DNA from: Acaryochloris marina MBIC11017
GTDB taxonomy: Bacteria; Cyanobacteriota; Cyanobacteriia; Thermosynechococcales; Thermosynechococcaceae
NCBI RefSeq assembly: GCF_000018105.1
Contig: NC_009925.1
Coordinates: 6,300,001-6,332,000 of the forward strand
DNA length: 32,000 nucleotides
Reading direction: 5' to 3'
In this document: piece by piece, positions 17,826 through 31,891 of the stretch
Numbering within the stretch: position 1 is the stretch's first letter
Layout of the letters: every line of letters starts with the position of its first letter
The notes under the pieces: model-generated
The model's database searches: none
Told to the model about the DNA's origin: nothing
The model's input: only the letters and a program-made list of their open reading frames with translations
Made by a program: the position numbers and the translations under genes

Positions 17826-17971
17826 ACTGACATATTTAGGTTAATAACAGTAGCTCAAACAAAAATAGCAGAGGAGGAGAATACAAGTAACCTTCTCAAT
17901 TAAGGAAGCTTATTATAAGAACTTATAACTACGCTTATAAGAAACGCGCTTCCCAGTCTGTACATACCCGT
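17826..17971 (+). promoter_or_regulatory. Conserved upstream leader shared with 28030..28117 (putative promoter and 5' UTR of DUF4157 paralogues 1 and 3)
   Basis: ACTGA(C/G)ATATTTAGGTTAATAACAGTAG...AGAATACAAGTA...TTAAGGAAGCTT aligns by eye between the two loci. The homology continues into the coding regions. Confidence 0.5.
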
Positions 17972-19429
17972 GTGCCTCGACCGTCTGAAGTCAAGTCATC
18001 AGTGCAGCCTCCGCTTCAGGCAAGGTCGAATGAAGAGGATTTAGCTGAACATGCTGAGCGATTGAAAAAGTTTCAGCGGCTGGGTAGTTCGATGATACAA
18101 ATGGGTCCACCCAGACTTGATAATAATAAGACCAATTCAATACAACCCAAACCTTGGATTCAGAGGAAGCTAACACTTGGAGAACAGGGAGATAAATATG
18201 AACTGGAAGCAGATCGGGTTGCATCTCATGCGGTTCAACAGATCAATGCCCCTGCTTCTAAACCATCAAATCTAGAGCAGTCAGTGCATCATCTAGAGTC
18301 TGCTATTAGTAGTGCAAGAGGTAGTGGACAGCCATTGGATGCGAAATTGCAACAGTCAATGGGTCAAGCGATGGGTGCAGATTTTAGCGGAGTGAGGGTC
18401 CATACCGATGCTCAGTCTGATCACTTAAATCAATCGATTCAGGCCAGGGCATTTACAACGGGTCAAGATGTTTTCTTTCGAGAAGGGGCTTATCAGCCGG
18501 GGAATCGTGGAGGGCAAGAGTTGATTGCCCATGAGCTAACTCATGTAGTGCAACAGGATGAAAATTCTCTGTCATCTATATCTGAATCATCACATTCTAA
18601 ACAGGTCAAACCCAGCAAAACTAACAGAGAGCAACAAATAAGTCTCAGCGTAAATCATGTTTCGCCCAAACATATCAACATTCAACGTGTAGTTACAAGT
18701 ATTGAATGGAGTGATGCAAAGGAAGTTCAAACTCTTGAAGTTGAGGGGCGACCTCCAGGAACTCAAGGAGCTCATACAACAGCATTTGTTGTTTTTGTAC
18801 AAGGTTTACGTAATCGCTTATTTAAGAAAAATTTTTCTGATGTTCTCAAAGAGCTTAAGACAATGACTGCTGAGATCAAGAATCTACCAGGCTTTTCTCA
18901 AAGCACAAAATATATGCAAAATTTTGTCAAAGATGCAGTCGATAATCTTATTAATAATATTGACACTGCTATTTTAAATATAGGAACAACATCTGAAATT
19001 AAATATACTCAAATTATTCAGGAATTTTGCAATCAGTATCTTAGAGCTAGGAACCAAGTTCACTTTACTGCTGATAAGGATGTAAAAGGATCTTCACCTT
19101 TAGGGGAAGCAGCTAGTAACAAGGTTTTAGTTGAGTATGTAGCAGGATATATTGAGGATCCAACCGACGCAGATGCTTCAGCTAAAGCAATAGCAAAACA
19201 GAGCTTTAAGTTATTTGATTGGAAGGTTACAAAGAAATTGAAACCTGATATTGTGGCTCAACATCTTATCTCTATCGACCAGGCATTTCCAGGGATAATC
19301 CCACTTAGGAAAAAGATAGTCGCTAAATTTCTTTTACTTGTTAGTAAAAAGTATCGTAGAGAGTCAGATTCATTTGATAGGAAGGTAAAAGACATCTTAA
19401 CTGGTCAACCACTTCCTTGGATCGTTTAA
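17972..19429 (+). CDS. DUF4157 (HExxH, eCIS-associated type) domain protein, paralogue 1, with an orphan ~290-aa C-terminal module
   Basis: Motifs are PWIQRKLTLGEQGDKYELEADRVA and GQPLDAKLQQSMGQAMGADFSGVRVHTDAQSDHLNQSIQARAFTTGQDVFFREGAYQPGNRGGQELIAHELTHVVQQ (HELTH at 18530..18544). The start is a GTG, because the ancestral ATG seen in paralogue 3 is ATA here. Confidence 0.8.
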   Translation: MPRPSEVKSSVQPPLQARSNEEDLAEHAERLKKFQRLGSSMIQMGPPRLDNNKTNSIQPKPWIQRKLTLGEQGDKYELEADRVASHAVQQINAPASKPSNLEQSVHHLESAISSARGSGQPLDAKLQQSMGQAMGADFSGVRVHTDAQSDHLNQSIQARAFTTGQDVFFREGAYQPGNRGGQELIAHELTHVVQQDENSLSSISESSHSKQVKPSKTNREQQISLSVNHVSPKHINIQRVVTSIEWSDAKEVQTLEVEGRPPGTQGAHTTAFVVFVQGLRNRLFKKNFSDVLKELKTMTAEIKNLPGFSQSTKYMQNFVKDAVDNLINNIDTAILNIGTTSEIKYTQIIQEFCNQYLRARNQVHFTADKDVKGSSPLGEAASNKVLVEYVAGYIEDPTDADASAKAIAKQSFKLFDWKVTKKLKPDIVAQHLISIDQAFPGIIPLRKKIVAKFLLLVSKKYRRESDSFDRKVKDILTGQPLPWIV

Positions 19430-19623
19430 AGAAGATGTATACAAAAAACAAGAATTGTGAATGGTTTAGTGAATTGTATATCTCACAGAATATATGGCGC
19501 TTTCTAACATAAGAAGTAACGCATTTAAAGCATAAGGTGGTCAACACCTCGACGATCTTAACGGGTCTTTGGATAAAACCCATTATCATTGCTGTGGACA
19601 CGTTTGTAACTCTTCTTTAATAA

Positions 19624-19866
19624 GTACGGTACCAATTCTGGATCACCATCGAAGGTAGTGGTAAGCCATTCATCAAAATTTCGTTTGAAACGCCCGAGTT
19701 TTGCTTCGAGTGCGCTTTGGAGTTAGAGAATACGTTCGATGTGTTGCAGGTTTTAAGTCTGCGGCCAGGGGAAACTCTCGAGCGGATTGAGGAGATGATC
19801 GGGGTGTGGTTGGATCGGGAGCGGGTGGCGAAGGTTTGGGGGTGGGAAATCCTTAAAGTGCGGTAA
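19624..19866 (+). pseudogene. 3' two-thirds of the conserved ~285-bp unit (compare 31682..31891); no start codon
   Basis: Its translation VRYQFWITIEGSGKPFIKISFETPEFCFECALELENTFDVLQVLSLRPGETLERIEEMIGVWLDRERVAKVWG... aligns to the end of ORF 31247..31891. A TAA lies immediately upstream at 19621. Confidence 0.75.
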
Positions 19867-19955
19867 ATATTTCTATTTGGATTTCTACCGTAAGAAATTT
19901 TTCCGTGAGTTTAGGATTAAAAGTATGTGATTCGGTTTCAGATGGGAGACTGTTG

Positions 19956-21842
19956 ATGAAGCGTACTCATGCTTATAAGCCAGAAAAATCTAAGTCACAA
20001 CCGATACCTCAACCAATATCATCAGATCAAGCTCAATCAGCAACACCAGTTCCTCCCCCCCTTCAAGCCAAAACAAATGAAGAGGGTTTGGCTGAATGGA
20101 AAGCTCAACAAGAGAAGTGGGAAAGGTTTGGAACGCCTTGGAAAGATAAGGTTCCCAATCCATCCGGAGAATTGGTACAACCCTGGATTCAGCGGAAGTT
20201 AACCCTTGGACAACCGGGAGATAAGTATGAACAGGAAGCGGATCGGGTTGCTTCCCAGGTAGTACAGCAAATTAATGCCCCTTCTTTATCTCAATTCAAT
20301 CAAGGGCAATCTGTACAGCAAGAGAAAGAACTGGAAGGTGAGATGCAAGCGAAAAGTCTTCGTGCTGCTATCCAGCGCCGTCAAGCAATGACAAATGAAG
20401 AAGTATCATCAGATTTGGAGTCTACTATTAATAATGCTAAGGGCGGTGGACAGCCATTGGATGTTGGATTGCAACAGTCAATGGGTCAGGTGATGGGTGC
20501 TGATTTTAGTGGTGTGAGGGTGCATACAGATCCCCAGTCCGATCAGTTAAATCAATCAATTCAGGCGCGGGCATTTACAACAGGTCAGGATGTATTTTTT
20601 CGAGATGGAGCCTATCAGCCAGGAAATCGCGGAGGGCAAGAGCTAATTGCCCATGAGTTAACCCATGTGATTCAGCAAAATAATTCAACAATTCAAAGGA
20701 AAGGAGGTCAGGGAAGGTTTGGGAAACAAAAAAATATGAATCGTCTTCCCAGTAATCTTCAGATTGGAATAGAGTCCCTTTCGGGAATTTCAACAGACGA
20801 CATAACAGTCCACCATAACTCTGGTGAACCCGCCAAAGTTCAGGCTTTAGCTTATACGGAAGGTACTGATATCTATCTTGCGCCAGGTCAGGAAAAACAT
20901 CTTTCTCATGAAGCTTGGCATGTTGTACAACAAAAACAGGGGCGGGTTAGACCAACAACACAAGTGGGAGGTGTTGCCGTTAATAATAATCCACAACTAG
21001 AACGAGAAGCAGATGTGATGGGGGAGCAGTCAAAAAGAGTAGGTAATTTTAGTAAATCTAAAGCAATTAAAGTCAGTAATACCATTAATCAACGAGAGAA
21101 ATCATTGCGACGAAAACCATCCTCCTCGCCAATCATTCAGCGCATGGTAGGAATGAACTCTAAAGGAATTAATAACGAGATCAAGAGTTTGACGAGTGAT
21201 CCTAAGAATATCCTGAAACTGACTGAAGCCTATACATTTATGCAGCATATCTCCTGGGCTCATAATATTGTTGGAGGGCAACTTTTTGACATGAGTGACC
21301 CTAAATTCAATAACATTGGCAAGAGTGAAAATTTAATTCTTGTGGCTCATGGTCTGGAGGGGCAATCAGGCCCATATGATGGTGCCACAATTGCTGGATT
21401 TTTAGCAGATAAAAATACAGGCGTTCCGCTAGATTGGGAAGGAAATGTATATATAACTTCCTGCTATTCAGGAGCAGGAGCTTCTCCATTAGTGAAGCAA
21501 GTAGCAGAAAGCTTAACTGTTCTCGGGAGAGATAAAATAACTGTAACAGGCTATGCAGGAACAACCGTTACTCATAAAGAATTTGATGAAGTTATTTTTG
21601 TTGTTGATCCTAAAAAAGAAAAAGAGTTTAAGAAGATTTCAGATTCTGTTTCACTTAAGTATAAGCACTTGTTTACTGAGTGGTATATGAAAATACAGGG
21701 TTTGAAACCTAGTAATGTTCTTGAAATGGCGGATTACACATCAAATCTTACTGCTGCGGCATACAAAGAAATGGTAGAACAGGCTGCTAGTCAAGATATC
21801 TTCTTAGATGAAGATCATGGAGAAGTGTCTAGTACTTCTTGA
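19956..21842 (+). CDS. Tandem DUF4157 domain protein, paralogue 2, with a C-terminal caspase-like (clan CD-like) His/Cys domain
   Basis: The first DUF4157 has HELTH at 20652..20666. The second is ISTDDITVHHNSGEPAKVQALAYTEGTDIYLAPGQEKHLSHEAWHVVQQKQGRV (HEAWH at 20907..20921). The C-terminus has NLILVAHG (His 21348) and NVYITSCYSGAG (Cys 21462). I chose the ATG at 19956 (GGGAGA 8 nt upstream; MKRTHAYK matches MRTHQYAHK of paralogue 3). Confidence 0.85.
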   Translation: MKRTHAYKPEKSKSQPIPQPISSDQAQSATPVPPPLQAKTNEEGLAEWKAQQEKWERFGTPWKDKVPNPSGELVQPWIQRKLTLGQPGDKYEQEADRVASQVVQQINAPSLSQFNQGQSVQQEKELEGEMQAKSLRAAIQRRQAMTNEEVSSDLESTINNAKGGGQPLDVGLQQSMGQVMGADFSGVRVHTDPQSDQLNQSIQARAFTTGQDVFFRDGAYQPGNRGGQELIAHELTHVIQQNNSTIQRKGGQGRFGKQKNMNRLPSNLQIGIESLSGISTDDITVHHNSGEPAKVQALAYTEGTDIYLAPGQEKHLSHEAWHVVQQKQGRVRPTTQVGGVAVNNNPQLEREADVMGEQSKRVGNFSKSKAIKVSNTINQREKSLRRKPSSSPIIQRMVGMNSKGINNEIKSLTSDPKNILKLTEAYTFMQHISWAHNIVGGQLFDMSDPKFNNIGKSENLILVAHGLEGQSGPYDGATIAGFLADKNTGVPLDWEGNVYITSCYSGAGASPLVKQVAESLTVLGRDKITVTGYAGTTVTHKEFDEVIFVVDPKKEKEFKKISDSVSLKYKHLFTEWYMKIQGLKPSNVLEMADYTSNLTAAAYKEMVEQAASQDIFLDEDHGEVSSTS

Positions 21843-21891
21843 AGGCTATGTTTTTTAGTGAATATTTCCTGAACGTTTGTTCATTATCTAA

Positions 21892-21985
21892 AAGAATTTA
21901 GTTCAGCAGACTAAGCAAAAAGACCAGCTTGAGTATCTGACCGTTTCCCGAAGCAATTCAGAGAAATTCTAGATCACTGTGGAGC
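21892..21985 (+). pseudogene. 5' third of the conserved ~285-bp unit (compare 31607..31700), with TGG to TAG at 21970
   Basis: KNLVQQTKQKDQLEYLTVSRSNSEKF*ITVE aligns to KNLVQQTKQNGQLEYLAVSQSSSGHFWITVE of the full copy. Homology fades after about 21985. Confidence 0.7.
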
Positions 21986-22536: not shown

Positions 22537-23913
22537 ATGAATCAAAATAATGGTCCAAACTGGGACTATATCGTTAGAGATGGATGCAGGATCTACCAGT
22601 CTGGAAGCCATATTGACGGGAACTTCATCCGAGTTTATACACCCGAGGAGATTCCCTCAAAGAAAGAAAAAATAAAAGCAATCATCTATTTGCATGGCTT
22701 TGCATTATGCATGCCCAAATTCTATCAAGACCACATTTTGTCACTGGTTAAACAAGGCTACATTGTCTTTTTCCCCGATTTTCAAAGAAGTGACTATCCA
22801 GATGATGTTGAAACTGAAAAGATTTGCAAAGAAACCTACAACAAAAATGATTTTGGTTTCTGGTTAACCGCCTCAAGCAAAGTCGTGACAACAACCCTGA
22901 AGCCACAAAAGACCTTCGAGCGCAGGATGGTCTATCGGGATGACCAATTATCCAAAAAAGAGCAAGATAGTATCTGCGGTAGTTTTGAGGAACCTAGCTT
23001 ATCAAGATATCGCCAGGTCTCTATTGCCTTGGTTGTTTTATTGGGTTTACTCAATTTAATTGCTTGGTTCCGAAAAAATTACGGTAAAAACCTAATAAGG
23101 TTGATCTCAACGGTTGGGTGGAGTTTAGCTGAAAAACCCCCTGAATGGATTAAACATGCCATGACCTTGACGGAGAATGCATGGAGGCAAATCTGCTCGG
23201 ATAATCCAAAATTGGCTCCAGACAACATTGAGTTTTATGTGTTTGGTCATTCTCTGGGTGGATTACTCGCCTTAAGCTGGCCCTACTATGTCCAAGAAGA
23301 AGGCAAACACTTATTAGCACCCAAACAAATTCTGGTTGCGGATCCGGCCCCAAGCACTGAAATGGGGATTCCCTGGTTTGGAATTTTGATCTTGAAATTA
23401 TTTAGATCTCCCTTTGCAAGAGAACCCATAACGATTAGCAAAACAGGTCCAAAGTTAAACGTCCCTGTTGGCATCATGCATGGAGCTGATGACAAGCTGG
23501 TCAAACCGCAAACTTGGGTCGAAGGGAAACCCTCTAACTTTCATCAGATTGCTAGCACCGATAAGGCCATTTATTTTTCCCTCTCCAACCAGAAGAATGA
23601 TCCACCTCTGATTGCCTTCCACAACCAGGCAGTAACGGATACAACGTATTTTGATGATGATCTATTTGATAATTTTGGTGGCGTTAAAGATGGGCCAAAT
23701 GCTTACAATGGCGAATTTATCTGGCCAGGGTTTGATTTTGTTCTCAGTGGACAGGCAAGTGCAAATCAACTGCTCACGAGATTTCCTTTACACAAGATTC
23801 AGGTCACGGATACCTTACCTGACAACAGCAGTCTATTCAGTCGGCCCCTCATCCGAGTTGCAACTGCCCTAATAGCTTTGGGGGTTGGCTACTGGTTATT
23901 GCGAGGGGTCTAA
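22537..23913 (+). CDS. Membrane-associated alpha/beta hydrolase (chlorophyllase / PAF-acetylhydrolase-like motifs)
   Basis: KAIIYLHGFALCMPKFYQDHILSLVKQGYIVFFPDFQ is an oxyanion-region pattern. The nucleophile elbow is FGHSLGG (Ser codon 23251). There is an internal hydrophobic segment (VSIALVVLLGLLNLIAWF) and a C-terminal one (VATALIALGVGYWLL). Confidence 0.75.
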   Translation: MNQNNGPNWDYIVRDGCRIYQSGSHIDGNFIRVYTPEEIPSKKEKIKAIIYLHGFALCMPKFYQDHILSLVKQGYIVFFPDFQRSDYPDDVETEKICKETYNKNDFGFWLTASSKVVTTTLKPQKTFERRMVYRDDQLSKKEQDSICGSFEEPSLSRYRQVSIALVVLLGLLNLIAWFRKNYGKNLIRLISTVGWSLAEKPPEWIKHAMTLTENAWRQICSDNPKLAPDNIEFYVFGHSLGGLLALSWPYYVQEEGKHLLAPKQILVADPAPSTEMGIPWFGILILKLFRSPFAREPITISKTGPKLNVPVGIMHGADDKLVKPQTWVEGKPSNFHQIASTDKAIYFSLSNQKNDPPLIAFHNQAVTDTTYFDDDLFDNFGGVKDGPNAYNGEFIWPGFDFVLSGQASANQLLTRFPLHKIQVTDTLPDNSSLFSRPLIRVATALIALGVGYWLLRGV

Positions 23914-23995
23914 AATTTGTTCGATTCCTAGGGCCGGACAAATTATCGCCTACAGATTCTCAGCTCAGGCAGACACAAAGGGAGTGGTTAAGATC

Positions 23996-25555
23996 ATGAA
24001 ATTCCTCAACAATATTTTCAATACACTCCTTTGTCGGTTGACCTCCATAGTGCTGATAGGTTTACTGAATTTGTTGGGTGTGCAAATTCAACCTGTTGTC
24101 GCAGGACCTAACAATAGCCCTTGTACATCTTCCAATCCACAATTGGCCCAACCATGGTGTATACCCACTACATTGACCCTAAGTTCTACTGATGCAGATC
24201 AAGAGCAGTACGAATACTATGACTTTATTTGGAGAACCTTCATTGCGCTCAATTGGCCGAATGTTCCCATCACCGTCGAGGGTAATCAGATCGTTGAGGG
24301 GTTTCGAGGAGAGCCCGATCCGACGATCAATATTTTGGACCAGCAAGGTAATGGGCCTCTCAAACAATCGGTTTGGGAAAATTATCGTGAACCCAGCTCT
24401 GAAATATTTCTCCCACCTGAAGATTGGGATAACTATCCAGAATGGAATACACCCAGACCACCAGTGGCTGATAGACCAAATAATCAGCGGTTCTTGAAAA
24501 ATTTTGATGGCTTAGTGGAGTACGCCGCTGATATTAACCAGCCTTATTTTTATCCCAATTTAACCGGGCCATTAATCGATCAAGCGGGCAACTTTGTTCG
24601 CTATGAAGTTGCCACCAATCAAGCCTTTTTTACCTATATTCAGCACTCTCGCTACTATGATACCCAGCAACAAAAGGAAGACGTAGCGCGTTCCATTGAG
24701 AAACCAAAGGATAAACAGTCAGGTTTCAAACGTCCTCCCTATGGAGATGAGGCATACCTCCGAAATCTCAAACCCTTTGCCAAGCAGGGCTTTATTGATG
24801 TGAAAGCAGCTTGGCGAGAGCTGAAGGAAGACGATCCTCTTGAGCGTTACTTACATCGAACCTTGGTCGTCGATCATCAAGGAACCCAAAAGATGATGGG
24901 ACTGGTTGCCTTGCATGTTTTTAGATACACCTTGATTGACCAAAATGGCAAGATCACGCCAGGGTATGTTGGCGCTACCTTTGAACAGGTAGATAATGTG
25001 GAATCGAGTCCGGGTATAAAACCGTCTTTTAATACGGGGTCCAAACCATCTGAGGTTCAAAAAACCTTCGGTTTTTCTGGGGATATCCCCACCACCGCTT
25101 CCAAAGATAACCCTAAACCTCAATCACCAGTGTCAATCTATCGAGTGACACCTATCCCTGGTAGCGACGTCTTTTGCCCACCCCCTAACCAAACGCAAAA
25201 ATGCCCCCCAGCTCTTAGCGTTGCCGCCATTAATGCAAAGTATCAAGAACAGCTCCAGCCTTCTGTTTTTTCCTATTACCAACTGATTGGTACTCAGAAT
25301 AAGCGTCCTGATCGGCCACTCGATTTTTCCAACCCATCAAACCGTCAGTTTAACGGCCATGAAGGCCCAATTACTGGGGTCTATACCAATACAAACAATT
25401 TAATCAATACAGCTCTCGAATCATACACACAACAAAATTTTTCCTGCATCTTGTGTCACTCTCAAGCCCGTCCCCAAGGTGTTCCCAAAAAGTCATTTGA
25501 GGATGATCGCTTCAAAATCATCACCTTTATGTTGAATATGGCTCACGATAAGTAA
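23996..25555 (+). CDS. Secreted protein of unknown function with a single C-terminal CXXCH motif (paralogue A)
   Basis: It has a signal peptide (MKFLNNIFNTLLCRLTSIVLIGLLNLLGVQIQPVVAG) and an AAAGGGAG Shine-Dalgarno sequence 11 nt upstream of the ATG at 23996. CILCH is at 25445..25459. It shares several motifs with 25811..27133. Confidence 0.75.
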   Translation: MKFLNNIFNTLLCRLTSIVLIGLLNLLGVQIQPVVAGPNNSPCTSSNPQLAQPWCIPTTLTLSSTDADQEQYEYYDFIWRTFIALNWPNVPITVEGNQIVEGFRGEPDPTINILDQQGNGPLKQSVWENYREPSSEIFLPPEDWDNYPEWNTPRPPVADRPNNQRFLKNFDGLVEYAADINQPYFYPNLTGPLIDQAGNFVRYEVATNQAFFTYIQHSRYYDTQQQKEDVARSIEKPKDKQSGFKRPPYGDEAYLRNLKPFAKQGFIDVKAAWRELKEDDPLERYLHRTLVVDHQGTQKMMGLVALHVFRYTLIDQNGKITPGYVGATFEQVDNVESSPGIKPSFNTGSKPSEVQKTFGFSGDIPTTASKDNPKPQSPVSIYRVTPIPGSDVFCPPPNQTQKCPPALSVAAINAKYQEQLQPSVFSYYQLIGTQNKRPDRPLDFSNPSNRQFNGHEGPITGVYTNTNNLINTALESYTQQNFSCILCHSQARPQGVPKKSFEDDRFKIITFMLNMAHDK

Positions 25556-25810: not shown

Positions 25811-27133
25811 TTACTGAGCTTCACCTAACAGAAAACTAAAATCTGCTGATTGATTATCAGTCGTTTTAGCCCCTTTATGACAACCTAGGCAGCTTGATTG
25901 GAATCCAAAAGGAGAACCCTTCTGGATAAACGTTTCCAGAGTTGTATTAGCCAGAAATGGCGGTGTGCCTTGAGGGGCACCACCCGTCGCCCACTGAGTT
26001 CCAATCAACTCATAGTTGGCCCACACTGAATCCCCCAGTAGTTGTTGGTAATAACGATTCAATTCAGGAGCAGAAGACTCAATAGGAGTGGTCCGAATGA
26101 CTTGCACAGGTGAATTGATGGGAATACCATCTGGATTAAGCTCCTGATAAGGTTTACTAGCAGTCTGTACATTGGGTTTGCACTGAGGACCTTCACAGTT
26201 AGGGTTATAAAAGGAATGGGGTTGCTTTAAACCTTCCGTCTTAATTGTTGGTGCATTATCGACTTGTTCAAAGGTGGACCAAAACCAAGAATTCTGCGAA
26301 GGAGTTTTGTGGATGATATGCATTCCCACTAAGCCGAGCGTTACAGGATTTTTACCAGGACTAGTAGTTTCTTTATTGTCGTTATAGACAATGCCTTGTG
26401 TCGTGTAGAATCGACCCTTATCAATTTCCTGTTGACTCAAAACCTTCCAAGCGGCTTTTATCTCCATCGATCCTGTTTTACCGCAGGGTTTATCACCACA
26501 TGGGCTTGGACTAGATTGAGAACCATCAGGGAAATTAATAGCTTTCCCTTGCTGACCAGCTTGGTTCCAAAGATCATTGCTGACAACGTAGTTATATTCA
26601 TCCAAATTAAGACGTTTTTCCGACCGAACTAATCTCTGATTCTGATCCGTAAGGACACCCCCCACAGCTTCATCAATATCAGGGAATTGCTCCTGTAAGT
26701 TGGCAGAAGCCTTTGAAATGTGTTTAAAGACCTTAGGCCCTTTCAGTTTTTGTGAACACCATTGCTGAGGCGTAGACCCAGAACTCACAAAGACATTTGT
26801 ATCCTCTGAAAAAGTTTCCCACTCGGTAGGGCCATCCCCAGTGAGGATGCTTTTCTCAACATCAGGTTCGCACTTATTTAAATTGGCAGGCCAATTCATC
26901 GCGATAAAGGAGTTCCAGGAAAAGACATCCACATCACTTTGGAATTCACCAAACCTAGGGCATGCATCTGTTGGTTGTTGGGCGAGTTCTGCCGAAATTA
27001 CCGTAGGACAAGTGGAACCTAGACAGGGGGAATTAGTATTACATTCTTGAGGAATAGCTTGGACCGGATCTGATACTAAGAAGATTAAAACTGTCGAAGA
27101 AATTGCAAGAGCCAAGTGGGACAAAGTATTCAT
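25811..27133 (-). CDS. Secreted protein of unknown function with a single C-terminal CXXCH motif (paralogue B)
   Basis: It has a signal peptide (MNTLSHLALAISSTVLIFLVSDPVQA). CLGCH is at 25877..25891. It shares FxWxxFIA(L/M)NWP, KAAW(R/K), TFEQVDN and Y(Q/E)LIGTQ with paralogue A. Confidence 0.8.
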   Translation of the reverse strand: MNTLSHLALAISSTVLIFLVSDPVQAIPQECNTNSPCLGSTCPTVISAELAQQPTDACPRFGEFQSDVDVFSWNSFIAMNWPANLNKCEPDVEKSILTGDGPTEWETFSEDTNVFVSSGSTPQQWCSQKLKGPKVFKHISKASANLQEQFPDIDEAVGGVLTDQNQRLVRSEKRLNLDEYNYVVSNDLWNQAGQQGKAINFPDGSQSSPSPCGDKPCGKTGSMEIKAAWKVLSQQEIDKGRFYTTQGIVYNDNKETTSPGKNPVTLGLVGMHIIHKTPSQNSWFWSTFEQVDNAPTIKTEGLKQPHSFYNPNCEGPQCKPNVQTASKPYQELNPDGIPINSPVQVIRTTPIESSAPELNRYYQQLLGDSVWANYELIGTQWATGGAPQGTPPFLANTTLETFIQKGSPFGFQSSCLGCHKGAKTTDNQSADFSFLLGEAQ

Positions 27134-27184
27134 ATTTCAAAGAACCAAACTCAGTATCTATTCAATGAATAAAATTATGTGTAT

Positions 27185-27607
27185 CTAGTACCCAACTTTT
27201 GAGGTTTTAATAGGCTTAATGCATTGGCCTACGACAGGACTATAGGTTGAGCCTTCAGGACATTCGCATGCACTGGAATTTCCACATTGATTAATATCTT
27301 GAGTACAAATCCCTTGCGGTTTTGTAGCACAACGACTTTTGACTTCAACCCCAGTACCGTCAGCTAGAGCAATATCATCGATGAGACATTTTCCAACAGA
27401 AGAATTATATGAATAGCCTTGTGAGCATGCACAAACACTGGGGTTACCACATGCATTGATGTCACGGGTACAAACTCCAGTAGGTTCTTGTATACAGGGT
27501 CCAATAGGTTTTGCGGATGCTACTGGAGAATATACTAATAGAAGTATGCTCAGCAGTAAGGTGCTGACTATTTTTAAGACTTTTTCAGTTGAGAAATTTT
27601 GACGCAT
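27185..27607 (-). CDS. Small secreted cysteine-rich protein with two EGF-like repeats
   Basis: It has a signal peptide. The two repeats are C-x7-C-x6-C-x5-C-x-C-x12-C (CIQEPTGVCTRDINACGNPSVCACSQGYSYNSSVGKC and CATKPQGICTQDINQCGNSSACECPEGSTYSPVVGQC). It ends 51 bp upstream of paralogue B on the same strand. Confidence 0.7.
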   Translation of the reverse strand: MRQNFSTEKVLKIVSTLLLSILLLVYSPVASAKPIGPCIQEPTGVCTRDINACGNPSVCACSQGYSYNSSVGKCLIDDIALADGTGVEVKSRCATKPQGICTQDINQCGNSSACECPEGSTYSPVVGQCIKPIKTSKVGY

Positions 27608-28029
27608 AGTCTATCTCCTCATCAAAAAAATAGGTATATTTAGGATATTAATATCAATAATTTCCTATAATTTATTTCTATAGCTTCAGCTATATAATTC
27701 TCAAACTAGTCAATTTTTGCGAACTAAATTATCAAGGAAATTTATTTTCATCAGTATGAGTATTTAGTTATAGTCATCCATCTTATGAAATCAGTCGACT
27801 CAATGGATTAATGCTCAATTTTTGGTGAGATTCGAAGTTATTCTATGTATTAAAAGTGAATATGACAATATTATAAATTTTAACTAAATAGCTCTGAGCT
27901 AAATCTAGATTTTTATCTTTGGTCTTATAGATTCATATGCTGTATTTTTGAAATATCATATTTTACCTATATTCAGCTCAATTTTTTGGAAAATTAGCGT
28001 TTAGAAAGATATCAAAAATAAAGTTCTAG

Positions 28030-28117
28030 ACTGAGATATTTAGGTTAATAACAGTAGGAAAAACAAAATAAATGCGGGAGAGAATACAAGTAGCCTATTG
28101 AAATTAGGAAGCTTGTA
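28030..28117 (+). promoter_or_regulatory. Conserved upstream leader shared with 17826..17917
   Basis: See feature 17826..17971. It sits at the end of a ~510-bp, very AT-rich divergent intergenic region. Confidence 0.5.
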
Positions 28118-31066
28118 ATGAGAACTCATCAGTACGCTCATAAGAAACGAGCTTCCCAGTCTGTCCGTACCCCAGTCTCTCGACCTACTGAAGTCCAGGC
28201 ATCAGTGCAACCTGCTCTGATACAGGCGAAATCGAATGAAGAGGGACTGGCTGAACATGCTGAGCGGTTGAGGAAGTTTCAGCGGTTGGGTAATTCAATG
28301 ATGCAAATGGGTCCACCCAGACTTGATAACGATACGACCAGTTCATTACAACCACAACCTTGGATACAGAAGAAGCTGACGATTGGGAAGCCAGGGGATA
28401 AGTATGAACAAGAGGCAGATCGAGTTGCATCTCAAGTGGCTCAACATATCAATGCCCCTACTTTTAAAGAAAACAGTATGAGGGAGTCGATTCAGCGCGA
28501 GAAAGACTTAGAAGGTGTAATGTGCGCGAGAGGTTTTCAAGCTGCCATCCAGCGAAAGCAAGCAATAGAAAGTGGAGAAGCATCACCTGATTTAGAGTCT
28601 GCTATCAGTAGTGCGAGGGGCTGTGGACAGCCATTGGATGCAGGACTGCAACAGTCAATGGGTCAGGCGATGGGTGCAGATTTTAGTGGTGTGCGGGTGC
28701 ATACGGATGCCCAGTCAGATCAATTGAATCAATCCATTCAGGCAAGGGCCTTTACGACGGGACAGGATGTATTTTTTCGTTCAGGAGCTTATAAACCCGG
28801 AAATCGAGGAGGCCAGGAGTTGATTGCTCATGAGTTGACTCATGTGATGCAGCAGAATGGAAAGATGGTGCAGCGACAAAGTGAATGTGAAGAAGAACTC
28901 TTGCAAAGCAAATTTGCTGCTGGTAGGATGCCGACTCAACTCCAAACTACCCACACTCCTAGTGAAAACCGCACGGGGATGCTGGATGCTTTGAATGCGG
29001 AGGATGATGCTTCTTACCAGTGTTTAGCCGGCACTACAGGAACAGCAGCAGTTACTCAAAAAAGTTCTGACCTCAGTCCTGCCTCTCAGTGGGATTTTGC
29101 TAAATATAAAAACGGATTCACATCAGATTTTAATGCAAACGTGCCTATTCAAGCGAAGATCGTTGTAAGTAAGGAACAAATCACCTATCCCGATTGGGAA
29201 AATGCTTACAAGGGGCTAAAGCAGAGCACATCTTTAACTCTGAGTGGAAAATTTACAGATAAAGATGACTGGATGATCCGTTTTGTTTTGTATGCAATGG
29301 ATCAGGAAAACGAAAAATTTGTGAACTTTATGAATTTTGAGGCAGTTGTACTCGATCGAATAACTAAAGGCTGTTGTAACGCTACCCGTCATCGAATTTT
29401 AAGTGGTTTGGAAATCAATAATGACTTTGAAACTCTTTATAATGCATTAACTTCCAGGCAATTTTTCGGAGCCGATGTTGGGAAAGAGACCACTCCCAAG
29501 GAAGCGAAAAATATCTTTAAAAATGCTCTACAGCAAGGTTATCGAAGATTTGATACAGCTTCAATATACACTATGGAAGGTGGAGGATCCACTCTTGAGG
29601 CTTTAATGGCAGCAGCCAAAGAGCTGACAATTTCTCGGGAAGAACTGACCATTCTTTACAAAGTCAAGCCAGAAAAAGGGAAATCTATTGATGGGCAAAT
29701 GGAGAGTTCTAAGAACGCCCTGAGTAATCTTCCTGATATTCTCATGCTGCATGAAATAGATGACATTGAGAAAGCAAAAAAGGATTTAGGGGATTTAATT
29801 GAACTGGTAAAGATAGGAAATTCTAAAGCAGTTGGTGTGAGCAATGTCAACGCAATTTACCTTGATATACTTTACCAATTTTCTCTTCAGAAGCAAGTTC
29901 CAATCACCTATGTCGAAAATCGTTTCACTCCTTATTATCCTGACACAGAGGTCCGGGATTACTGCAAAAAAAATGGTATCAAATATTTAGGTTTTGGGAT
30001 CATCGGAAGCGCACAAAAAGGGGTTTGTGAAAACGATGGACAAGGGCTTCCCTCACAGTATCTTGTTGCATTGATGGATCCTCGTCTCCAGAAACTTGCC
30101 GAGAAATGGGGTCTGAAGAATGAGGCTTCAAATGGGGTAGGTGAATTGCTTTATGCCTGGTCTGCTCATAAAGGAGTGGCTCCTGTGGCTTATTCAAGTG
30201 ATCCTGGACGACAAGCAAAAAATTATGCTGCAAAGAATATCCGACTAACCCGTAAGAACCTAGCAGAAATTGATGCAATCGTCTTGAAGCCTCGGAATAT
30301 CGAAGAAAAAGAATGGGGGGACTCAGAATCTGAAGTAGCTCTCAAGAGTTTATTTGCTTCACTAACACATCCTACTGCCTGGTTTTTGATGAGTGAAGTA
30401 TGTGATTCTGGAGGTGGCAAATTGGTCAATGCCATTGCAATGAGGATTATTGACGAGTTTAAAGAAAGTAAGAAGCAAAAAGAAAAACTTCAAAACTTTG
30501 TTTGGAATTTTATGCGTTTCGCTGCGGATCTGCAAGCTAAGGCAAATCCACAAAGAAAAAAATGGTTCAGTAGTATGAAAGGGCTTTTTCGAGCAATGAG
30601 TGAGGCTGCCCAAAAGTCACCCAAGATATTTGACTTGAGTTATGAATGGGCTATGCGATCTAGTGAAAAAGGAGGCGATGCTCAAAATGCTATTCAGCGA
30701 GTTGAACAGGTTTTAAACGGAGAGTATGTGCCCTCACATGATCCATTGACAGAAAGTGGCAAATCTAACCTTGAGGAAAAGAAAAAAAAGGATGAATTGA
30801 AGGCACTATCCATAAAGGAGGCTAAATTTGAGAAAGTTAGCTTAACTGAGACAATAGAAAATCTAACTATACAAGAGGTAAATAAACAATTTACTCCGGA
30901 AGATGAATCATACAAAATTTTTATGTGGATACCCGATCTGATGAAGATGCAAATTAATGGTAAATCAATCGATGGAACGATTGTCTTGAGCAGGAAGGAA
31001 AAAATAAGATACAAGATCTACGTTCAAAGCAAAAATCCCAAACTCTATCGTTTGGAGAAAATTTAG
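28118..31066 (+). CDS. DUF4157 (HExxH) domain protein, paralogue 3, fused to an aldo/keto-reductase-like domain and an orphan C-terminal region
   Basis: The N-terminal ~250 aa are collinear with paralogues 1 and 2 (HELTH at 28829..28843). About 29455..30290 is AKR-like (GYRRFDTASIY...ILYKVKPE...ILMLHEID...KAVGVSNVN...PITYVENRFTPYYPD...YCKKNGIKYLGFG...LLYAWSAHKGVAPVAYSSDP). Confidence 0.85.
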   Translation: MRTHQYAHKKRASQSVRTPVSRPTEVQASVQPALIQAKSNEEGLAEHAERLRKFQRLGNSMMQMGPPRLDNDTTSSLQPQPWIQKKLTIGKPGDKYEQEADRVASQVAQHINAPTFKENSMRESIQREKDLEGVMCARGFQAAIQRKQAIESGEASPDLESAISSARGCGQPLDAGLQQSMGQAMGADFSGVRVHTDAQSDQLNQSIQARAFTTGQDVFFRSGAYKPGNRGGQELIAHELTHVMQQNGKMVQRQSECEEELLQSKFAAGRMPTQLQTTHTPSENRTGMLDALNAEDDASYQCLAGTTGTAAVTQKSSDLSPASQWDFAKYKNGFTSDFNANVPIQAKIVVSKEQITYPDWENAYKGLKQSTSLTLSGKFTDKDDWMIRFVLYAMDQENEKFVNFMNFEAVVLDRITKGCCNATRHRILSGLEINNDFETLYNALTSRQFFGADVGKETTPKEAKNIFKNALQQGYRRFDTASIYTMEGGGSTLEALMAAAKELTISREELTILYKVKPEKGKSIDGQMESSKNALSNLPDILMLHEIDDIEKAKKDLGDLIELVKIGNSKAVGVSNVNAIYLDILYQFSLQKQVPITYVENRFTPYYPDTEVRDYCKKNGIKYLGFGIIGSAQKGVCENDGQGLPSQYLVALMDPRLQKLAEKWGLKNEASNGVGELLYAWSAHKGVAPVAYSSDPGRQAKNYAAKNIRLTRKNLAEIDAIVLKPRNIEEKEWGDSESEVALKSLFASLTHPTAWFLMSEVCDSGGGKLVNAIAMRIIDEFKESKKQKEKLQNFVWNFMRFAADLQAKANPQRKKWFSSMKGLFRAMSEAAQKSPKIFDLSYEWAMRSSEKGGDAQNAIQRVEQVLNGEYVPSHDPLTESGKSNLEEKKKKDELKALSIKEAKFEKVSLTETIENLTIQEVNKQFTPEDESYKIFMWIPDLMKMQINGKSIDGTIVLSRKEKIRYKIYVQSKNPKLYRLEKI

Positions 31067-31246
31067 GCACAGGTGGGTTAAAGGTAATTTTATAGCTCAG
31101 ATCTTATCCTCAAAAGCTACACGGGAAAGAATACGGTAGCTTGGTAGCCCCGTGACTTTAGTTCGAGTTGGAAAAGCGACTCGAGCGACTTTAGTCGCAT
31201 TAAGCATGGTGAGGGCCATGGCAATATTGAATGGCATTGTCCCCTC

Positions 31247-31891
31247 ATGTTGATAGCTGAATATTTACTGATGACTCCCCAACTCATCTCACTGAAGCCC
31301 AAACCACCAGCCCAAGCCAAGCTGACACCCTCGATAAGCATCGAAGCAACCCCCACATACCCAGACAAGGCATCATTCTCAACCATCGACCGGAAAGATG
31401 ATCTTCCAGTGAAGTGCAAGGCAGCTCCAGAGATTGAAGACGATGATCGCACTACTGGCACCACCACCAGATACGACCAAAGTGAACCCACCGACACACG
31501 GAGAACCCAGCGAGGGTATTCAGCTCGACAAATACCAGGAAGAGTCAGACCTCCCAGAGTATCCAGAGAATTTGAATCCAAATTCCACGCACTCGAGTGC
31601 AGGCAGAAGAATCTGGTTCAGCAGACTAAGCAAAATGGGCAGCTTGAATACTTGGCCGTTTCCCAAAGCAGCTCGGGACACTTCTGGATCACCGTCGAAG
31701 GCAGTGGAAAGCCATTCATCAGAATTCCATTTGATACAGCAGAGTTTTGTTTCGAGAGCGCGTTGGAATTAGAGGACACGTTCGATGTGTTGCAGGTGTT
31801 GAGTCTGCAGCCAGGGGAAATTATTGAGAGAATCGAGGAGATGATTGGGGTGTGGCTGAATCGGGAGCGAGTGGCGAGATGTTGGGGTTGA
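31247..31891 (+). CDS. Hypothetical protein; only the last ~95 codons (31607..31891) are conserved in the partial copies at 19624 and 21892, and the true start is uncertain
   Basis: The ORF is open from 31247, but its N-terminal 120 codons are low-complexity and compete with other frames. The conserved part is KNLVQQTKQNGQLEYLAVSQSSSGHFWITVEGSGKPFIRIPFDTAEFCFESALELEDTFDVLQVLSLQPGEIIERIEEMIGVWLNRERVARCWG. Confidence 0.4.
   Translation: MLIAEYLLMTPQLISLKPKPPAQAKLTPSISIEATPTYPDKASFSTIDRKDDLPVKCKAAPEIEDDDRTTGTTTRYDQSEPTDTRRTQRGYSARQIPGRVRPPRVSREFESKFHALECRQKNLVQQTKQNGQLEYLAVSQSSSGHFWITVEGSGKPFIRIPFDTAEFCFESALELEDTFDVLQVLSLQPGEIIERIEEMIGVWLNRERVARCWG

What the first reader, a model, noticed from the sequence alone, without database searches (positions are those of the whole stretch)
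17826..31891. Three-member family with a shared DUF4157/HExxH N-terminal module and unrelated C-terminal modules
Genes at 17972, 19956 and 28118 share about 200-250 N-terminal residues: PWIQ(R/K)KLT(L/I)G..GDKYE.EADRVAS...GQPLD..LQQSMGQ.MGADFSGVRVHTD.QSD.LNQSIQARAFTTGQDVFFR.GAY.PGNRGGQELIAHELTHV.QQ. This is the DUF4157 signature.

All three diverge completely within a few codons after HELTHVxQQ (about 18556, 20680 and 28860):
- Paralogue 1 continues into an orphan ~290-aa domain.
- Paralogue 2 continues into a second DUF4157 plus a His/Cys domain.
- Paralogue 3 continues into an aldo/keto-reductase-like domain plus an orphan tail.

The conserved 5' parts are noticeably GC-richer than the variable 3' parts. 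None of the three has a signal peptide; all begin with a short basic N-terminus (M(K/R)RTH.Y..K).

A constant N-terminal 'trafficking/processing' module with swapped C-terminal 'cargo' is how polymorphic toxins are built. DUF4157 has been reported as an N-terminal marker of effectors linked to extracellular contractile injection systems. No injection-system or immunity genes are visible here, so the delivery route and targets of this cluster are open.
Basis: partly seen in the sequence, partly recalled or inferred. Interest (0 to 1): 0.8.

Follow-up and report, generated by a model that had tools for sequence, protein, structure and literature searches.

The report
Polymorphic DUF4157 injection-type effector genes
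Three neighbouring genes of the cyanobacterium Acaryochloris marina join one conserved front end (a disordered leader plus a DUF4157 zinc-protease-like domain) to three unrelated back ends; this is the already described design of toxins carried by phage-tail-like injection machines, and the main new item is that one back end belongs to an undescribed protein domain family.

Summary
Three genes (17915/17972-19429, 19956-21842, 28118-31066) hit Pfam PF13699 (eCIS_core = DUF4157) at E 1e-32 to 1e-42. They share about 215-245 N-terminal residues and diverge within a few codons of HELTHVxQQ.

Zhang et al. 2012 described "PVC-metallopeptidase + variable toxin" polymorphic toxins. They cited the aldo-keto-reductase toxin of Acaryochloris marina itself, which is the type of paralogue 3. 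AlgoCIS cargo Cgo1/Cgo2 has the same leader-DUF4157-cargo plan.

What this work adds:
- The window is A. marina MBIC10699 chromosome, and a fourth member lies on plasmid pREC3.
- The copies are old (dS about 1) and under strong purifying selection (dN/dS 0.03-0.07).
- No cargo is an orphan. Paralogue 1's cargo belongs to an unannotated domain family of about 250 aa. 26 of 68 members carry DUF4157. The AlphaFold model is confident (pLDDT 92) and has no match in PDB.
- Paralogue 2's cargo has an orthologue beside a CIS tube gene in Pseudanabaena.
- A [ILVM]QR motif marks the leader/cargo junctions across the family.

No injection genes lie near the window. Published tables list sheath and baseplate genes elsewhere in A. 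marina. I could not test this strain's chromosome.

The parts
17826..17914 (+). About 90 nt of 5' untranslated/promoter DNA shared by P1 and P3 (partner 28030-28117)
   Evidence: blastn 81% identity block 17826-18262 vs 28030-28468; alignment of the upstream regions
17915..19429 (+). Paralogue 1 (P1). The ORF is open from 17891. ATA at 17915 aligns with the ATG of P3. The first standard start is GTG 17972 (485 aa).
   Evidence: Pfam PF13699 E 1.6e-32
17915..18331 (+). P1 hydrophilic, disorder-prone leader (subtype A) with PWIQRKLT and GDKYELEADRVA motifs
   Evidence: alignments; GRAVY -1.03, 61% disorder-promoting residues; motif coordinates
18332..18565 (+). P1 DUF4157/eCIS_core domain ending in HELTHVVQQ (18530-18556)
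   Evidence: Pfam residues 121-198 of the 485-aa form
18674..18688 (+). P1 junction motif INIQR, directly before the cargo domain
18689..19426 (+). P1 cargo: unannotated ~250-aa domain (beta-hairpin plus nine helices). Conserved GRPxxxxGxHTTA(W/F), LPG, LQxxxxxYLxxRNxxP, GxGE, D, QHL and P.
   Evidence: representatives search; jackhmmer; conservation; AlphaFold2 pLDDT 92.1, pTM 0.90; no PDB or BFVD match
19624..19866 (+). 80-codon ORF downstream of P1, homologous to the 3' third of ORF 31247-31891
   Evidence: blastn 84% over 209 nt; dN 0.096, dS 0.699
19956..21842 (+). Paralogue 2 (P2), 628 aa from ATG 19956 (MKRTHAYKPEK...), leader subtype B
   Evidence: Pfam PF13699 E 6e-42, two copies
20454..20684 (+). 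P2 first DUF4157 domain (HELTHVIQQ 20652-20678), followed by STIQR (20685-20699)
20745..21023 (+). P2 second DUF4157 domain (HEAWHVVQQ 20907-20933), followed by LEREADVMG
   Evidence: Pfam two stretches; 67% identical to the second DUF4157 of the pREC3 paralogue
21129..21143 (+). P2 junction motif PIIQR before the terminal cargo
   Evidence: same junction (APVIQRMVG) in Pseudanabaena P0122
21144..21839 (+). P2 terminal cargo, predicted alpha/beta, with invariant LILVAHG (21333-21353) and ITSCYSG (21453-21473). Fold not established.
   Evidence: homologues P0121 (92%) and P0122 (65%); low-confidence model, pLDDT 59; no fold match
21892..21984 (+). 31-codon remnant of the same multi-copy ORF family, downstream of P2
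   Evidence: blastn 78% over 92 nt vs 31607-31698; tblastn
28030..28117 (+). P3 copy of the 5' untranslated DNA shared with P1
28118..31066 (+). Paralogue 3 (P3), 982 aa, leader subtype A
28631..28861 (+). P3 DUF4157 domain (HELTHVMQQ 28829-28855), followed by KMVQR (28862-28876)
   Evidence: Pfam residues 172-248
28877..29140 (+). P3 low-complexity linker
   Evidence: no homologues found; region lies between the junction motif and the start of the conserved cargo unit
29141..31063 (+). P3 cargo unit: pre-domain (VPIQAK-IVVSKEQ...), aldo/keto reductase (29483-30280; D-Y-K-H motifs FDTASIY, ILYKV, LMLHE), helical tail and small C-terminal beta domain
   Evidence: Pfam PF00248 E 7.6e-24; the same unit in P0125, P0127, P0130 and P0142, two of them with an HExxH front end; motif coordinates
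31247..31891 (+). 214-aa ORF of a multi-copy, Acaryochloris-only family. Fragments of it follow P1 and P2.
   Evidence: 39 places on 17 Acaryochloris plasmids

Best explanation
The three genes encode modular effectors of the 'PVC/eCIS-type polymorphic toxin' kind, in Acaryochloris marina MBIC10699.

Each protein is built in this order:
1. A basic, hydrophilic, disorder-prone leader of about 90-160 residues. There are two subtypes, and the leader contains PWIQ(R/K)KLT and GDKYEQEADRVA.
2. A DUF4157 zincin-like domain ending in HExxHxxQQ.
3. One or two [ILVM]QR junction motifs.
4. A cargo that differs in each gene.

Proposed mechanism (inferred):
- The leader targets the unfolded protein into the tube lumen of a contractile injection system encoded elsewhere in the genome.
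- The DUF4157 domain acts on the protein itself, most likely releasing or maturing the cargo near the QR junction.
- The cargo then acts in the target cell.

The three cargoes are an uncharacterised helical domain with conserved R/H/E/D/H residues (P1), a second DUF4157 plus an alpha/beta domain with a His/Cys motif pair (P2), and an apparently active aldo/keto reductase unit (P3).

The gene family diversifies by recombination that re-pairs leaders with cargoes.

Shown here: domain identities, breakpoints, selection, cargo families, and CIS linkage of a P2-cargo orthologue in Pseudanabaena. Inferred: loading, delivery, cleavage, toxicity and target.
For: Domain identity and breakpoints:
- Strong PF13699 hits, and an HExxHxxQ signature in all four DUF4157 copies.
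- Sharp shared breakpoints and unrelated cargoes.

Selection:
- The DUF4157 core has dN/dS 0.03-0.07 at dS 0.9-1.3. The copies are therefore old, functional and not homogenised.

Leader:
- Its composition fits published eCIS loading sequences: hydrophilic, disorder-promoting, no Sec signal (PMC11297309; bioRxiv 10.64898/2026.05.27.728243).
- The leader also occurs without DUF4157 in an Acaryochloris MAG protein whose C-terminus is a DUF5636 domain.

Family and cargoes:
- 2743 relatives, nearly all cyanobacterial among those that carry a name. Some carry GH-E, Tox-HDC, YkuD or DUF4258 cargo.
- The same cargo (86-90% identical) sits on leader subtype A in P0001 and on subtype B in P0003/P0006.
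- The P2-cargo orthologue P0122 lies in an array of three DUF4157 genes beside a Phage_T4_gp19 tube gene and XisH/XisI.
- The P1-cargo family has 26 of 68 members with DUF4157.
- The P3-type AKR unit recurs behind HExxH front ends.

Literature:
- Zhang et al. 2012 list the AKR unit as Tox-Aldo-ketoreductase and cite A. marina.
- Anabaena tCIS and AlgoCIS carry DUF4157 cargo.
- A. marina has expressed sheath and baseplate genes.
Against: - No CIS structural or AAA+ gene lies in the 32-kb window or in the 13 kb downstream of it.
- Acaryochloris relatives of these genes are also not next to CIS genes.
- Geller et al. scored 0 of 2 Acaryochloris genomes as eCIS-positive.
- Cyanobacterial tube and sheath queries find nothing on Acaryochloris plasmids, including those of this strain.
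- The chromosome of this strain could not be searched.
- In AlgoCIS, DUF4157 is dispensable for loading, and its HExxH is dispensable for Cgo1 toxicity. Its role is therefore unproven.
- No cargo-specific immunity gene was found.
- P1 lacks a canonical start codon at the leader's start, and the same region is disrupted in its orthologue P0124.
- Toxicity of any of the three cargoes is untested. An aldo/keto reductase is not an obvious toxin.
Confidence: 0.72

Rival explanations
1. These are CIS-independent DUF4157 proteins. They are released by lysis or another secretion route, or they act inside the producer cell (for example in programmed cell death or phage defence). The link to injection systems is only ancestral.
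For: - No CIS genes lie near any Acaryochloris family member examined.
- The genus was scored eCIS-negative by Geller et al..
- Many cyanobacterial relatives sit alone or in toxin/antitoxin islands.
Against: - The leader has the features of CIS loading sequences.
- A P2-cargo orthologue is CIS-linked in Pseudanabaena.
- Sheath and baseplate genes are reported in A. marina.
- Cyanobacterial CIS loci can be split between distant sites, which would defeat operon-based detection. In Pseudanabaena ABRG5-3 the tube/baseplate genes lie at about 6-22 kb of the plasmid and the sheath gene at about 72 kb.
Confidence: 0.15
2. The DUF4157 domain is itself the weapon, a metallopeptidase toxin. On this view the C-terminal parts are targeting or accessory domains rather than cargo.
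For: - Zhang et al. note that some DUF4157 copies at C-terminal positions probably act as toxins.
- P2 and the pREC3 paralogue carry a second DUF4157 copy in a cargo-like position.
Against: - The first DUF4157 copy is always N-terminal and near-invariant, while the C-termini are swapped. This is the polarity of processing or trafficking modules.
- The cargoes include an AKR with an intact catalytic tetrad and a domain with conserved polar residues.
- Cgo1 toxicity did not need HExxH.
Confidence: 0.07
3. These are decaying remnants of an effector arsenal whose injection system was lost, that is, pseudogenes in an IS-rich junk region.
For: - The window is dense in transposases: Tn3 fragment, IS21, IS256 and IS4.
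- P1 has lost its ATG.
- Only fragments of the flanking ORF follow P1 and P2.
Against: - All three reading frames are intact over 485-982 codons.
- dN/dS is 0.03-0.07 at near-saturated dS.
- Exact copies of P3 occur in several independent assemblies.
Confidence: 0.04
4. These are ordinary paralogous metalloproteases whose C-termini simply diverged beyond recognition.
For: All share one N-terminal domain and lie within 13 kb of each other.
Against: - Homology ends abruptly at the same codon in all three.
- Each cargo has its own homologues elsewhere, fused to other front ends.
- GC content shifts at the junction.
- The same cargo is found on different leader subtypes.
Confidence: 0.02

Closest known systems
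PVC-secretory-system polymorphic toxins with N-terminal PVC-metallopeptidase (Zhang, de Souza, Anantharaman, Iyer, Aravind 2012, PMC3482391), including 'Tox-Aldo-ketoreductase'
   Same: [quoted passage not shown]
- Several such genes per genome, and frequent lack of adjacent immunity genes.
- Occasional second metallopeptidase copy.
- The paper names a TIM-barrel aldo-keto-reductase toxin from Acaryochloris marina (gi 158339325).
   Different: - This is a different strain (MBIC10699) and a three-gene chromosomal cluster, plus a plasmid copy.
- P1's cargo matches none of the toxin families in Pfam.
- The [ILVM]QR junction motif and the two leader subtypes do not appear in the passages of that paper that I read.
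AlgoCIS cargo proteins Cgo1/Cgo2 of Algoriphagus machipongonensis (PMC8894135; bioRxiv 10.64898/2026.05.27.728243)
   Same: - Disordered N-terminal domain, then DUF4157, then differing C-terminal domains.
- Paralogues within one genome share the leader.
- The proteins are loaded into the tube lumen, and the leader is required for loading.
   Different: - Cgo1/2 are encoded inside the CIS gene cluster, whereas the genes here are not.
- No sequence comparison with Cgo1/2 could be made, because their sequences were not at hand.
- Loading is untested here.
Alr3311/Alr3312, putative effectors of the thylakoid-anchored CIS of Anabaena sp. PCC 7120 (PMC8894136)
   Same: Cyanobacterial DUF4157 proteins proposed as tube-lumen cargo. 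Nostocales relatives of the window's front end are abundant.
   Different: - Those genes flank the tCIS cluster.
- A tCIS has not been shown in Acaryochloris. Only annotated sheath and baseplate genes are reported.
eCIS-associated toxins (EATs) of Geller et al. 2021 and Danov et al. 2024
   Same: DUF4157 at the N-terminus, a hydrophilic disordered 'eCIS signal', diverse and mostly unannotated cargo, and often no immunity gene.
   Different: - 88% of EATs lie within ten genes of an eCIS operon, and these genes do not.
- Acaryochloris was scored eCIS-negative.
VgrG2b C-terminal DUF4157 metallopeptidase effector of the Pseudomonas aeruginosa T6SS (Wood et al. 2019, PMC6899460; seen only in the search list and in citations, not read)
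   Same: It has the same Pfam domain and is associated with a contractile injection machine.
   Different: There the domain is the C-terminal toxin fused to a spike protein. Here it is the N-terminal constant module of free-standing proteins.

Membership tests
Pfam PF13699 eCIS_core / DUF4157 (PVC-metallopeptidase) | Profile match above the curated gathering score | tested here: met
   111-142 bits against a cut-off of 22 for all three proteins; two copies in P2
Pfam PF13699 eCIS_core / DUF4157 (PVC-metallopeptidase) | HExxHxxQ zinc-binding helix | tested here: met
   HELTHVVQQ, HELTHVIQQ, HEAWHVVQQ and HELTHVMQQ
Pfam PF13699 eCIS_core / DUF4157 (PVC-metallopeptidase) | Third zinc ligand (Glu on a further helix), as in the HExxHxxQ-E signature of Zhang et al. 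| tested here: inconclusive
   An E(Q/L/R)EAD motif lies about 110-140 residues upstream of the first HExxH in each protein, and 26 residues downstream of the second copy's HExxH in P2. No model of the domain was built, so the ligand is not assigned.
PVC/eCIS-type polymorphic toxins (Zhang et al. 2012) | Constant N-terminal peptidase module joined to unrelated C-terminal domains by recombination | tested here: met
   Sharp common breakpoints; unrelated cargoes; the same cargo on two leader subtypes; GC shift at the junction
PVC/eCIS-type polymorphic toxins (Zhang et al. 2012) | Cognate immunity gene directly downstream (typical of classical polymorphic toxins, often absent in the PVC type) | tested here: not met
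   The only conserved downstream ORF is the same for all three cargoes and is a multi-copy genus-wide family. There are no Pfam or NCBIfam immunity hits.
CIS cargo / eCIS-associated toxin (EAT) | Hydrophilic, disordered N-terminal loading sequence without a Sec signal | tested here: met
   GRAVY -0.94 to -1.11; 61-68% disorder-promoting residues; maximum hydrophobic window 0.23 or less. This rests on composition only; no disorder predictor was run.
CIS cargo / eCIS-associated toxin (EAT) | Encoded within about ten genes of CIS core genes | tested here: not met
   No sheath, tube, baseplate, spike or Afp15-type AAA+ ATPase gene (the only AAA-type hit is the IstB helper ATPase of the IS21 element) lies in the window or in 13 kb downstream.
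CIS cargo / eCIS-associated toxin (EAT) | A contractile injection system is encoded in the same genome | not testable with these tools
   - The chromosome AP026075 could not be searched.
- The strain's plasmids lack sheath and tube genes.
- The literature lists AM1_0271 (sheath) and AM1_6406 (GpW) in other A. marina strains.
- Geller et al. scored 0 of 2 genomes of the genus.
CIS cargo / eCIS-associated toxin (EAT) | Physical presence in the tube lumen and toxicity to a target | not testable with these tools
   This needs particle purification, mass spectrometry and expression assays.
Aldo/keto reductase superfamily (P3 cargo) | Profile match and catalytic tetrad Asp-Tyr-Lys-His | tested here: met
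   PF00248 scores 84.7 bits against a cut-off of 24. The motifs FDTASIY, ILYKV and LMLHE are conserved in P0125, P0127, P0130 and P0142. The tetrad was assigned by motif position, not by a structural alignment.
Caspase-like (clan CD) peptidase / Tox-Caspase (P2 terminal cargo) | His-Gly and Cys each following a hydrophobic beta-strand in an alpha/beta fold, recognised by profile or fold match | tested here: inconclusive
   VAHG and SCYSG are invariant in the three sequences and follow predicted strands. There is no Pfam hit at E up to 10, no PDB sequence hit, and no fold hit from a low-confidence model (pLDDT 59).

The most novel reading that the evidence does not exclude
The [ILVM]QR motif is the processing or joining signal of DUF4157 effectors. 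It recurs 13 residues after HExxH and immediately before the first cargo domain, but never between tandem cargo copies. The DUF4157 zincin would cut there to free the cargo. If so, the long-open question of what DUF4157 does would become directly testable with P1-P3. A separate possibility is that P1's cargo is a new enzymatic effector fold spread across many DUF4157 proteins.
Probability: 0.3. Interest if true: 0.65.

Novelty: new member of a known kind. Interest (0 to 1): 0.4.

Why it matters
The cluster is a compact natural set of four effectors in one strain. They share a leader and DUF4157 domain and carry different cargo, in a culturable chlorophyll-d cyanobacterium that was isolated from an ascidian.

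It offers three testable things:
1. A defined candidate cleavage or junction motif ([ILVM]QR) for the unexplained DUF4157 domain.
2. An undescribed cargo domain family with a confident predicted structure, no solved relative, and conserved Arg/His/Glu/Asp/His residues.
3. A case where effectors lie far from any injection genes. This bears on how many such 'orphan' effectors genome surveys miss when they require contiguous operons.

The general architecture is already textbook for the field.

Tried and rejected
1. **Genome-collection scan with the N-terminal alignment.** The tool chose very specific leader patterns and returned only two Acaryochloris MAG loci. The window's own genome is not in that collection, so family size and CIS presence in this genome could not be read from it.

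2. **Sheath query against the protein database.** The 120 rows shown were all Nostocales-type sheaths with at least 78% identity. The search says nothing about Acaryochloris.

3. **Concatenated-cargo query.** The exhaustive HMMER search was needed to find relatives of the P1 and P3 cargoes.

4. **Function of P1 cargo.** Nothing informative came from Pfam at E up to 10, the PDB sequence search (its only E<0.001 matches, designed PPR repeat proteins with no passing domain, are repeat artefacts), the PDB profile search (vinculin at E 0.018 is helical noise) or Foldseek against PDB and BFVD.

5. **Fold of P2 cargo.** The model was too weak and the fold search was meaningless. The caspase-like reading rests on motifs only.

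6. **The conserved ORF downstream of all three genes as immunity protein, chaperone or adaptor.** I rejected a specific partnership. The ORF is the same regardless of cargo and occurs at 39 places on 17 Acaryochloris plasmids, most of them without a DUF4157 gene. It may still supply homology for recombination.

7. **Recent duplication or gene conversion as the cause of the shared 5' parts.** Rejected, because dS is about 1.

8. **Walking upstream of the window.** This returned only short Logan contigs.

9. **NCBIfam** added nothing.

Full report
**Source of the window.** An exact-protein look-up of the 982-aa product places the window on record AP026075.1 of assembly GCA_024347835.1. A full-text search ties AP026075 to the chromosome of Acaryochloris marina MBIC10699, a chlorophyll-d cyanobacterium (PMC9324425). 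The strain was isolated from an ascidian.

The window is rich in mobile elements:
- a Tn3 transposase fragment (297-1097)
- an IS21 pair (6378-8673)
- an IS256/Mutator transposase (14279-15403)
- an IS4-type ORF (15480-16898), assigned from its sequence only; no family search was run on it

**The observation.** Three + strand ORFs hit Pfam PF13699 far above the cut-off of 22 bits (111.9, 142.1 and 111.2 bits). PF13699 is now named eCIS_core and was formerly DUF4157.
- P1: 17972-19429 as listed. The frame is open from 17891.
- P2: 19905-21842, with the likely start at ATG 19956.
- P3: 28118-31066.

P2 has two copies of the domain. P3 also hits the aldo/keto reductase family (PF00248, 84.7 bits).

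blastn fixes the shared DNA:
- P1/P3: 17826-18262 vs 28030-28468, and 18291-18564 vs 28590-28863 (81-83% identity).
- P1/P2: 18150-18257 and 18296-18546 of P1 match 20179-20286 and 20418-20668 of P2 (82-84%).
- P2/P3: 20177-20681 vs 28354-28858 (77%).

Homology therefore stops at about 18564, 20681 and 28863.

Other checks:
- The parts beyond the breakpoint are unrelated. The best pairwise BLASTP E-value is 0.006, over 37 residues.
- GC is 0.455-0.483 in the shared modules and 0.358-0.411 in the cargoes.
- There is no signal peptide, and the first 20 residues are basic.

- P1 has ATA at 17915 where P3 has ATG, so it lacks the canonical start. Its orthologue in another assembly (P0124) is also called from a different, downstream start.

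**Age and constraint.** For the 88-codon DUF4157 core, dS is 0.93-1.35 and dN is 0.04-0.07, so dN/dS is 0.03-0.07. The copies are old, are not being homogenised, and are under strong purifying selection. This rules out recent duplication and argues against pseudogenes.

**The family.** The N-terminal 249 residues of P3 find 2743 proteins at E up to 1e-5. Nearly all of those that carry a name are cyanobacterial. Some of the listed relatives carry known polymorphic-toxin domains behind the same front end:
- PF14410 GH-E
- PF15656 Tox-HDC
- PF03734 YkuD
- PF14076 DUF4258

I compared 13 close members, mostly from Acaryochloris. The regions after HExxH fall into eight unrelated groups. P2 and the plasmid paralogue share only a second DUF4157, so there are at least nine distinct terminal cargoes.

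The leader comes in two subtypes:
- Subtype A: ...NEEGLAEHAERLxKFQRLG..., found in P1 and P3.
- Subtype B: ...NEEGLAEWKAQQEKWERFG..., found in P2.

One cargo is 86-90% identical between a subtype A protein (P0001) and subtype B proteins (P0003, P0006). This shows exchange of modules.

An Acaryochloris MAG protein (L005 9929-11473) has the first ~63 leader residues but neither DUF4157 nor the rest of the shared module. It ends in a DUF5636 domain. The leader is therefore a module of its own.

A fourth member lies on plasmid pREC3 of the same strain (NZ_AP026078.1 213382-215100). Its front end is 80% identical to that of P3. It has two DUF4157 copies and yet another C-terminus.

**The cargoes are not orphans.** An exhaustive HMMER search of 1.84 billion representative proteins was run with the P1 cargo, the P3 linker and the P3 tail. 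It gave 74 hits.

*P1 cargo.*
- It belongs to a domain family of about 250 residues with 68 representative clusters.
- 26 of the 68 carry DUF4157, and no other Pfam family recurs among them.
- 45 of the 68 proteins hold two tandem copies of the domain.
- Conserved positions are GRPxxxxGxHTTA(W/F), LPG, LQxxxxxYLxxRNxxP, GxGE, an Asp, QHL and a Pro.
- With a 27-sequence alignment, AlphaFold2 gives pLDDT 92.1 and pTM 0.90. The model is a beta-hairpin followed by nine helices.
- Foldseek finds nothing in PDB (best E 0.11, TM-score 0.28 or less) or in BFVD.
- Profile and sequence searches of PDB and Pfam give no credible match; the E<0.001 PPR rows have no passing domain.
- This is a candidate new effector domain. 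The conserved polar set suggests an enzyme or a metal site, but that is inference.

*P2 terminal cargo.*
- Its homologues are P0121 (92% identical) and P0122 of Pseudanabaena sp. BC1403 (65%).
- P0122 lies in an array of three DUF4157 genes with XisH/XisI, next to a Phage_T4_gp19 tube gene and a 2174-aa neighbour.
- The related Pseudanabaena plasmid has tube, VgrG, PAAR, gp25 and baseplate genes at that place.
- Invariant VAHG and SCYSG follow predicted strands. This resembles caspase-like peptidases, but the model is weak (pLDDT 59) and no profile or fold match supports the idea.

*P3 cargo.*
- The real unit starts at VPIQAK-IVVSKEQ (29141). It comprises a short pre-domain, the reductase, a helical tail and a small C-terminal beta domain.
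- The same unit occurs in P0125, P0127, P0130 and P0142. P0127 and P0142 have HExxH front ends.
- The Asp-Tyr-Lys-His motifs are conserved in all of them.

**A junction motif.** [ILVM]QR occurs 2, 4 and 4 times in P1, P2 and P3, against about 0.5 expected from shuffling. In each protein one copy sits 13-50 residues after HExxH, and one sits directly before the cargo.
- In the 120 listed relatives it occurs 487 times against 43 +/- 6.5 in shuffles. The mode is 13 residues after the first His of HExxH.
- In the P1-cargo family it precedes the first or only copy of the domain in 48 of 68 proteins. It precedes the second tandem copy in 0 of 45. The background rate is 8% of 30-residue windows.

The motif therefore marks the boundary between the constant part and the cargo. 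I did not find it described in the papers read. It may be a cleavage site for the DUF4157 zincin or a conserved joint for recombination. Neither possibility is shown.

**Delivery.**

Evidence against a nearby or plasmid-borne CIS:
- No CIS gene lies in the window or in 13 kb downstream.
- None lies next to the Acaryochloris relatives examined.
- A cyanobacterial tube protein and a sheath protein find no Acaryochloris plasmid. The same collection does hold this strain's plasmids.
- A supplementary table of Geller et al. 2021 scores 0 of 2 Acaryochloris genomes as eCIS-positive.
- Two other CIS papers' supplements do not mention the genus.

Evidence for a CIS elsewhere on the chromosome comes from expression tables for A. 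marina MBIC11017 and MU13 (PMC11633204):
[quoted passage not shown] - Both are induced in low far-red light.

Cyanobacterial CIS genes can be split between distant loci. In Pseudanabaena ABRG5-3 the tube/baseplate genes lie at about 6-22 kb of the plasmid and the sheath gene at about 72 kb. That arrangement would escape operon-based surveys. I could not search this strain's chromosome, so this step stays inferred.

**Comparison with what is known.** Zhang et al. 2012 defined the PVC-metallopeptidase, with its HExxHxxQ-E signature, as follows:
- It is the constant N-terminal module of polymorphic toxins exported by phage-tail-like systems.
- It is probably an autoproteolytic releasing peptidase.
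- The systems often lack immunity genes and sometimes have a second copy of the domain.

They list 'Tox-Aldo-ketoreductase' (Bacteroidetes, cyanobacteria) and cite an Acaryochloris marina protein (gi 158339325).

Later work:
- Geller et al. 2021 and Danov et al. 2024 made DUF4157 a marker of eCIS toxins.
- AlgoCIS Cgo1/Cgo2 and Anabaena Alr3311/3312 are DUF4157 cargo.
- A 2026 preprint shows that the disordered leader is needed for loading and DUF4157 is not.

The finding is thus a new member of a known kind, and paralogue 3's type was already described.

**Other conserved DNA.** A 209-nt stretch after P1 (19633-19840) and a 92-nt stretch after P2 (21892-21983) match the ORF after P3 (31247-31891). 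The sequence is coding, with dN/dS of about 0.1. It belongs to a family found at 39 places on 17 Acaryochloris plasmids and nowhere else in the plasmid collection. It is therefore not a specific partner of these genes.

**Verdict.** Novelty is modest. The interest lies in the P1-type cargo family, the junction motif, and the fact that the effectors lie far from any injection genes.

Noticed in passing
window 17891-17974: P1 keeps the leader's reading frame, but ATA (17915) replaces the ATG of P3. The next standard start is GTG 17972, which would drop the basic first 19 residues. The orthologue P0124 is also called from a different start in a shifted frame.
   Followed up: partly
window 31247-31891; fragments at 19624-19866 and 21892-21984; L006 12348-12545; L016 8090-8431, 13368-13709, 17843-17989: This is a multi-copy ORF family found only in Acaryochloris, at 39 places on 17 plasmids. 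It is under purifying selection (dN/dS about 0.1) and has no Pfam or NCBIfam match. Copies or fragments follow all three DUF4157 genes. Its function is unknown; it may be portable homology for recombination or part of a mobile unit.
   Followed up: partly
family-wide; window 18674-18688, 20685-20699, 21129-21143, 28862-28876: The [ILVM]QR motif is enriched about 11-fold in DUF4157 relatives. It sits 13 residues after HExxH and directly before the first cargo domain, but never before a second tandem copy.
   Followed up: yes
L016 (NZ_AP026078.1 213382-216181) and L006 10001-12256: The plasmid-borne fourth paralogue is followed directly by a polyprenyl synthetase family gene. So is its relative P0007 on a 5.88-Mb A. 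marina chromosome (CP064923.1). This may be a conserved effector/partner pair or a split cargo.
   Followed up: no
window 23885-25555 (+) and 25811-27133 (-): These are two divergent paralogues (26% identity, E 3e-21), each with a signal peptide and a C-terminal CxxCH haem-binding-like motif. Neither has a Pfam or NCBIfam match. They lie between P2 and P3 with a Cys-rich secreted 140-aa protein (27185-27607) and an alpha/beta-hydrolase with a C-terminal hydrophobic tail (22537-23913). The block is kept intact in other assemblies (L002).
   Followed up: partly
window 9133-13566 (-): This ORF encodes a 1477-aa protein with an inverse-autotransporter beta-domain and long right-handed beta-helix repeats with near-identical 'ISTQG(D/E)xADGINV' units. 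It is probably a surface adhesin.
   Followed up: no
L005 9929-11473 and 14147-14500 (Acaryochloris MAG): A protein with the first ~63 residues of the leader but without DUF4157 (or the rest of the shared module) ends in a DUF5636 domain. A T6SS Tdi1_C immunity-like gene lies 2.7 kb downstream.
   Followed up: partly
L009 (NZ_AP017564.1 5952-20963) and the same record at about 71940-73631: On the Pseudanabaena sp. ABRG5-3 plasmid, the CIS tube, VgrG, PAAR, gp25 and baseplate genes lie about 50 kb from the sheath gene. Surveys that require a single operon would miss a split cluster like this.
   Followed up: partly
window 6378-8673: The IS21-type istA-like ORF (6378-8114) and the istB ORF (7831-8673) overlap by 284 nt in different frames. 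In a Logan assembly the region is called as one 764-aa product. This suggests a frameshift or an assembly difference.
   Followed up: no
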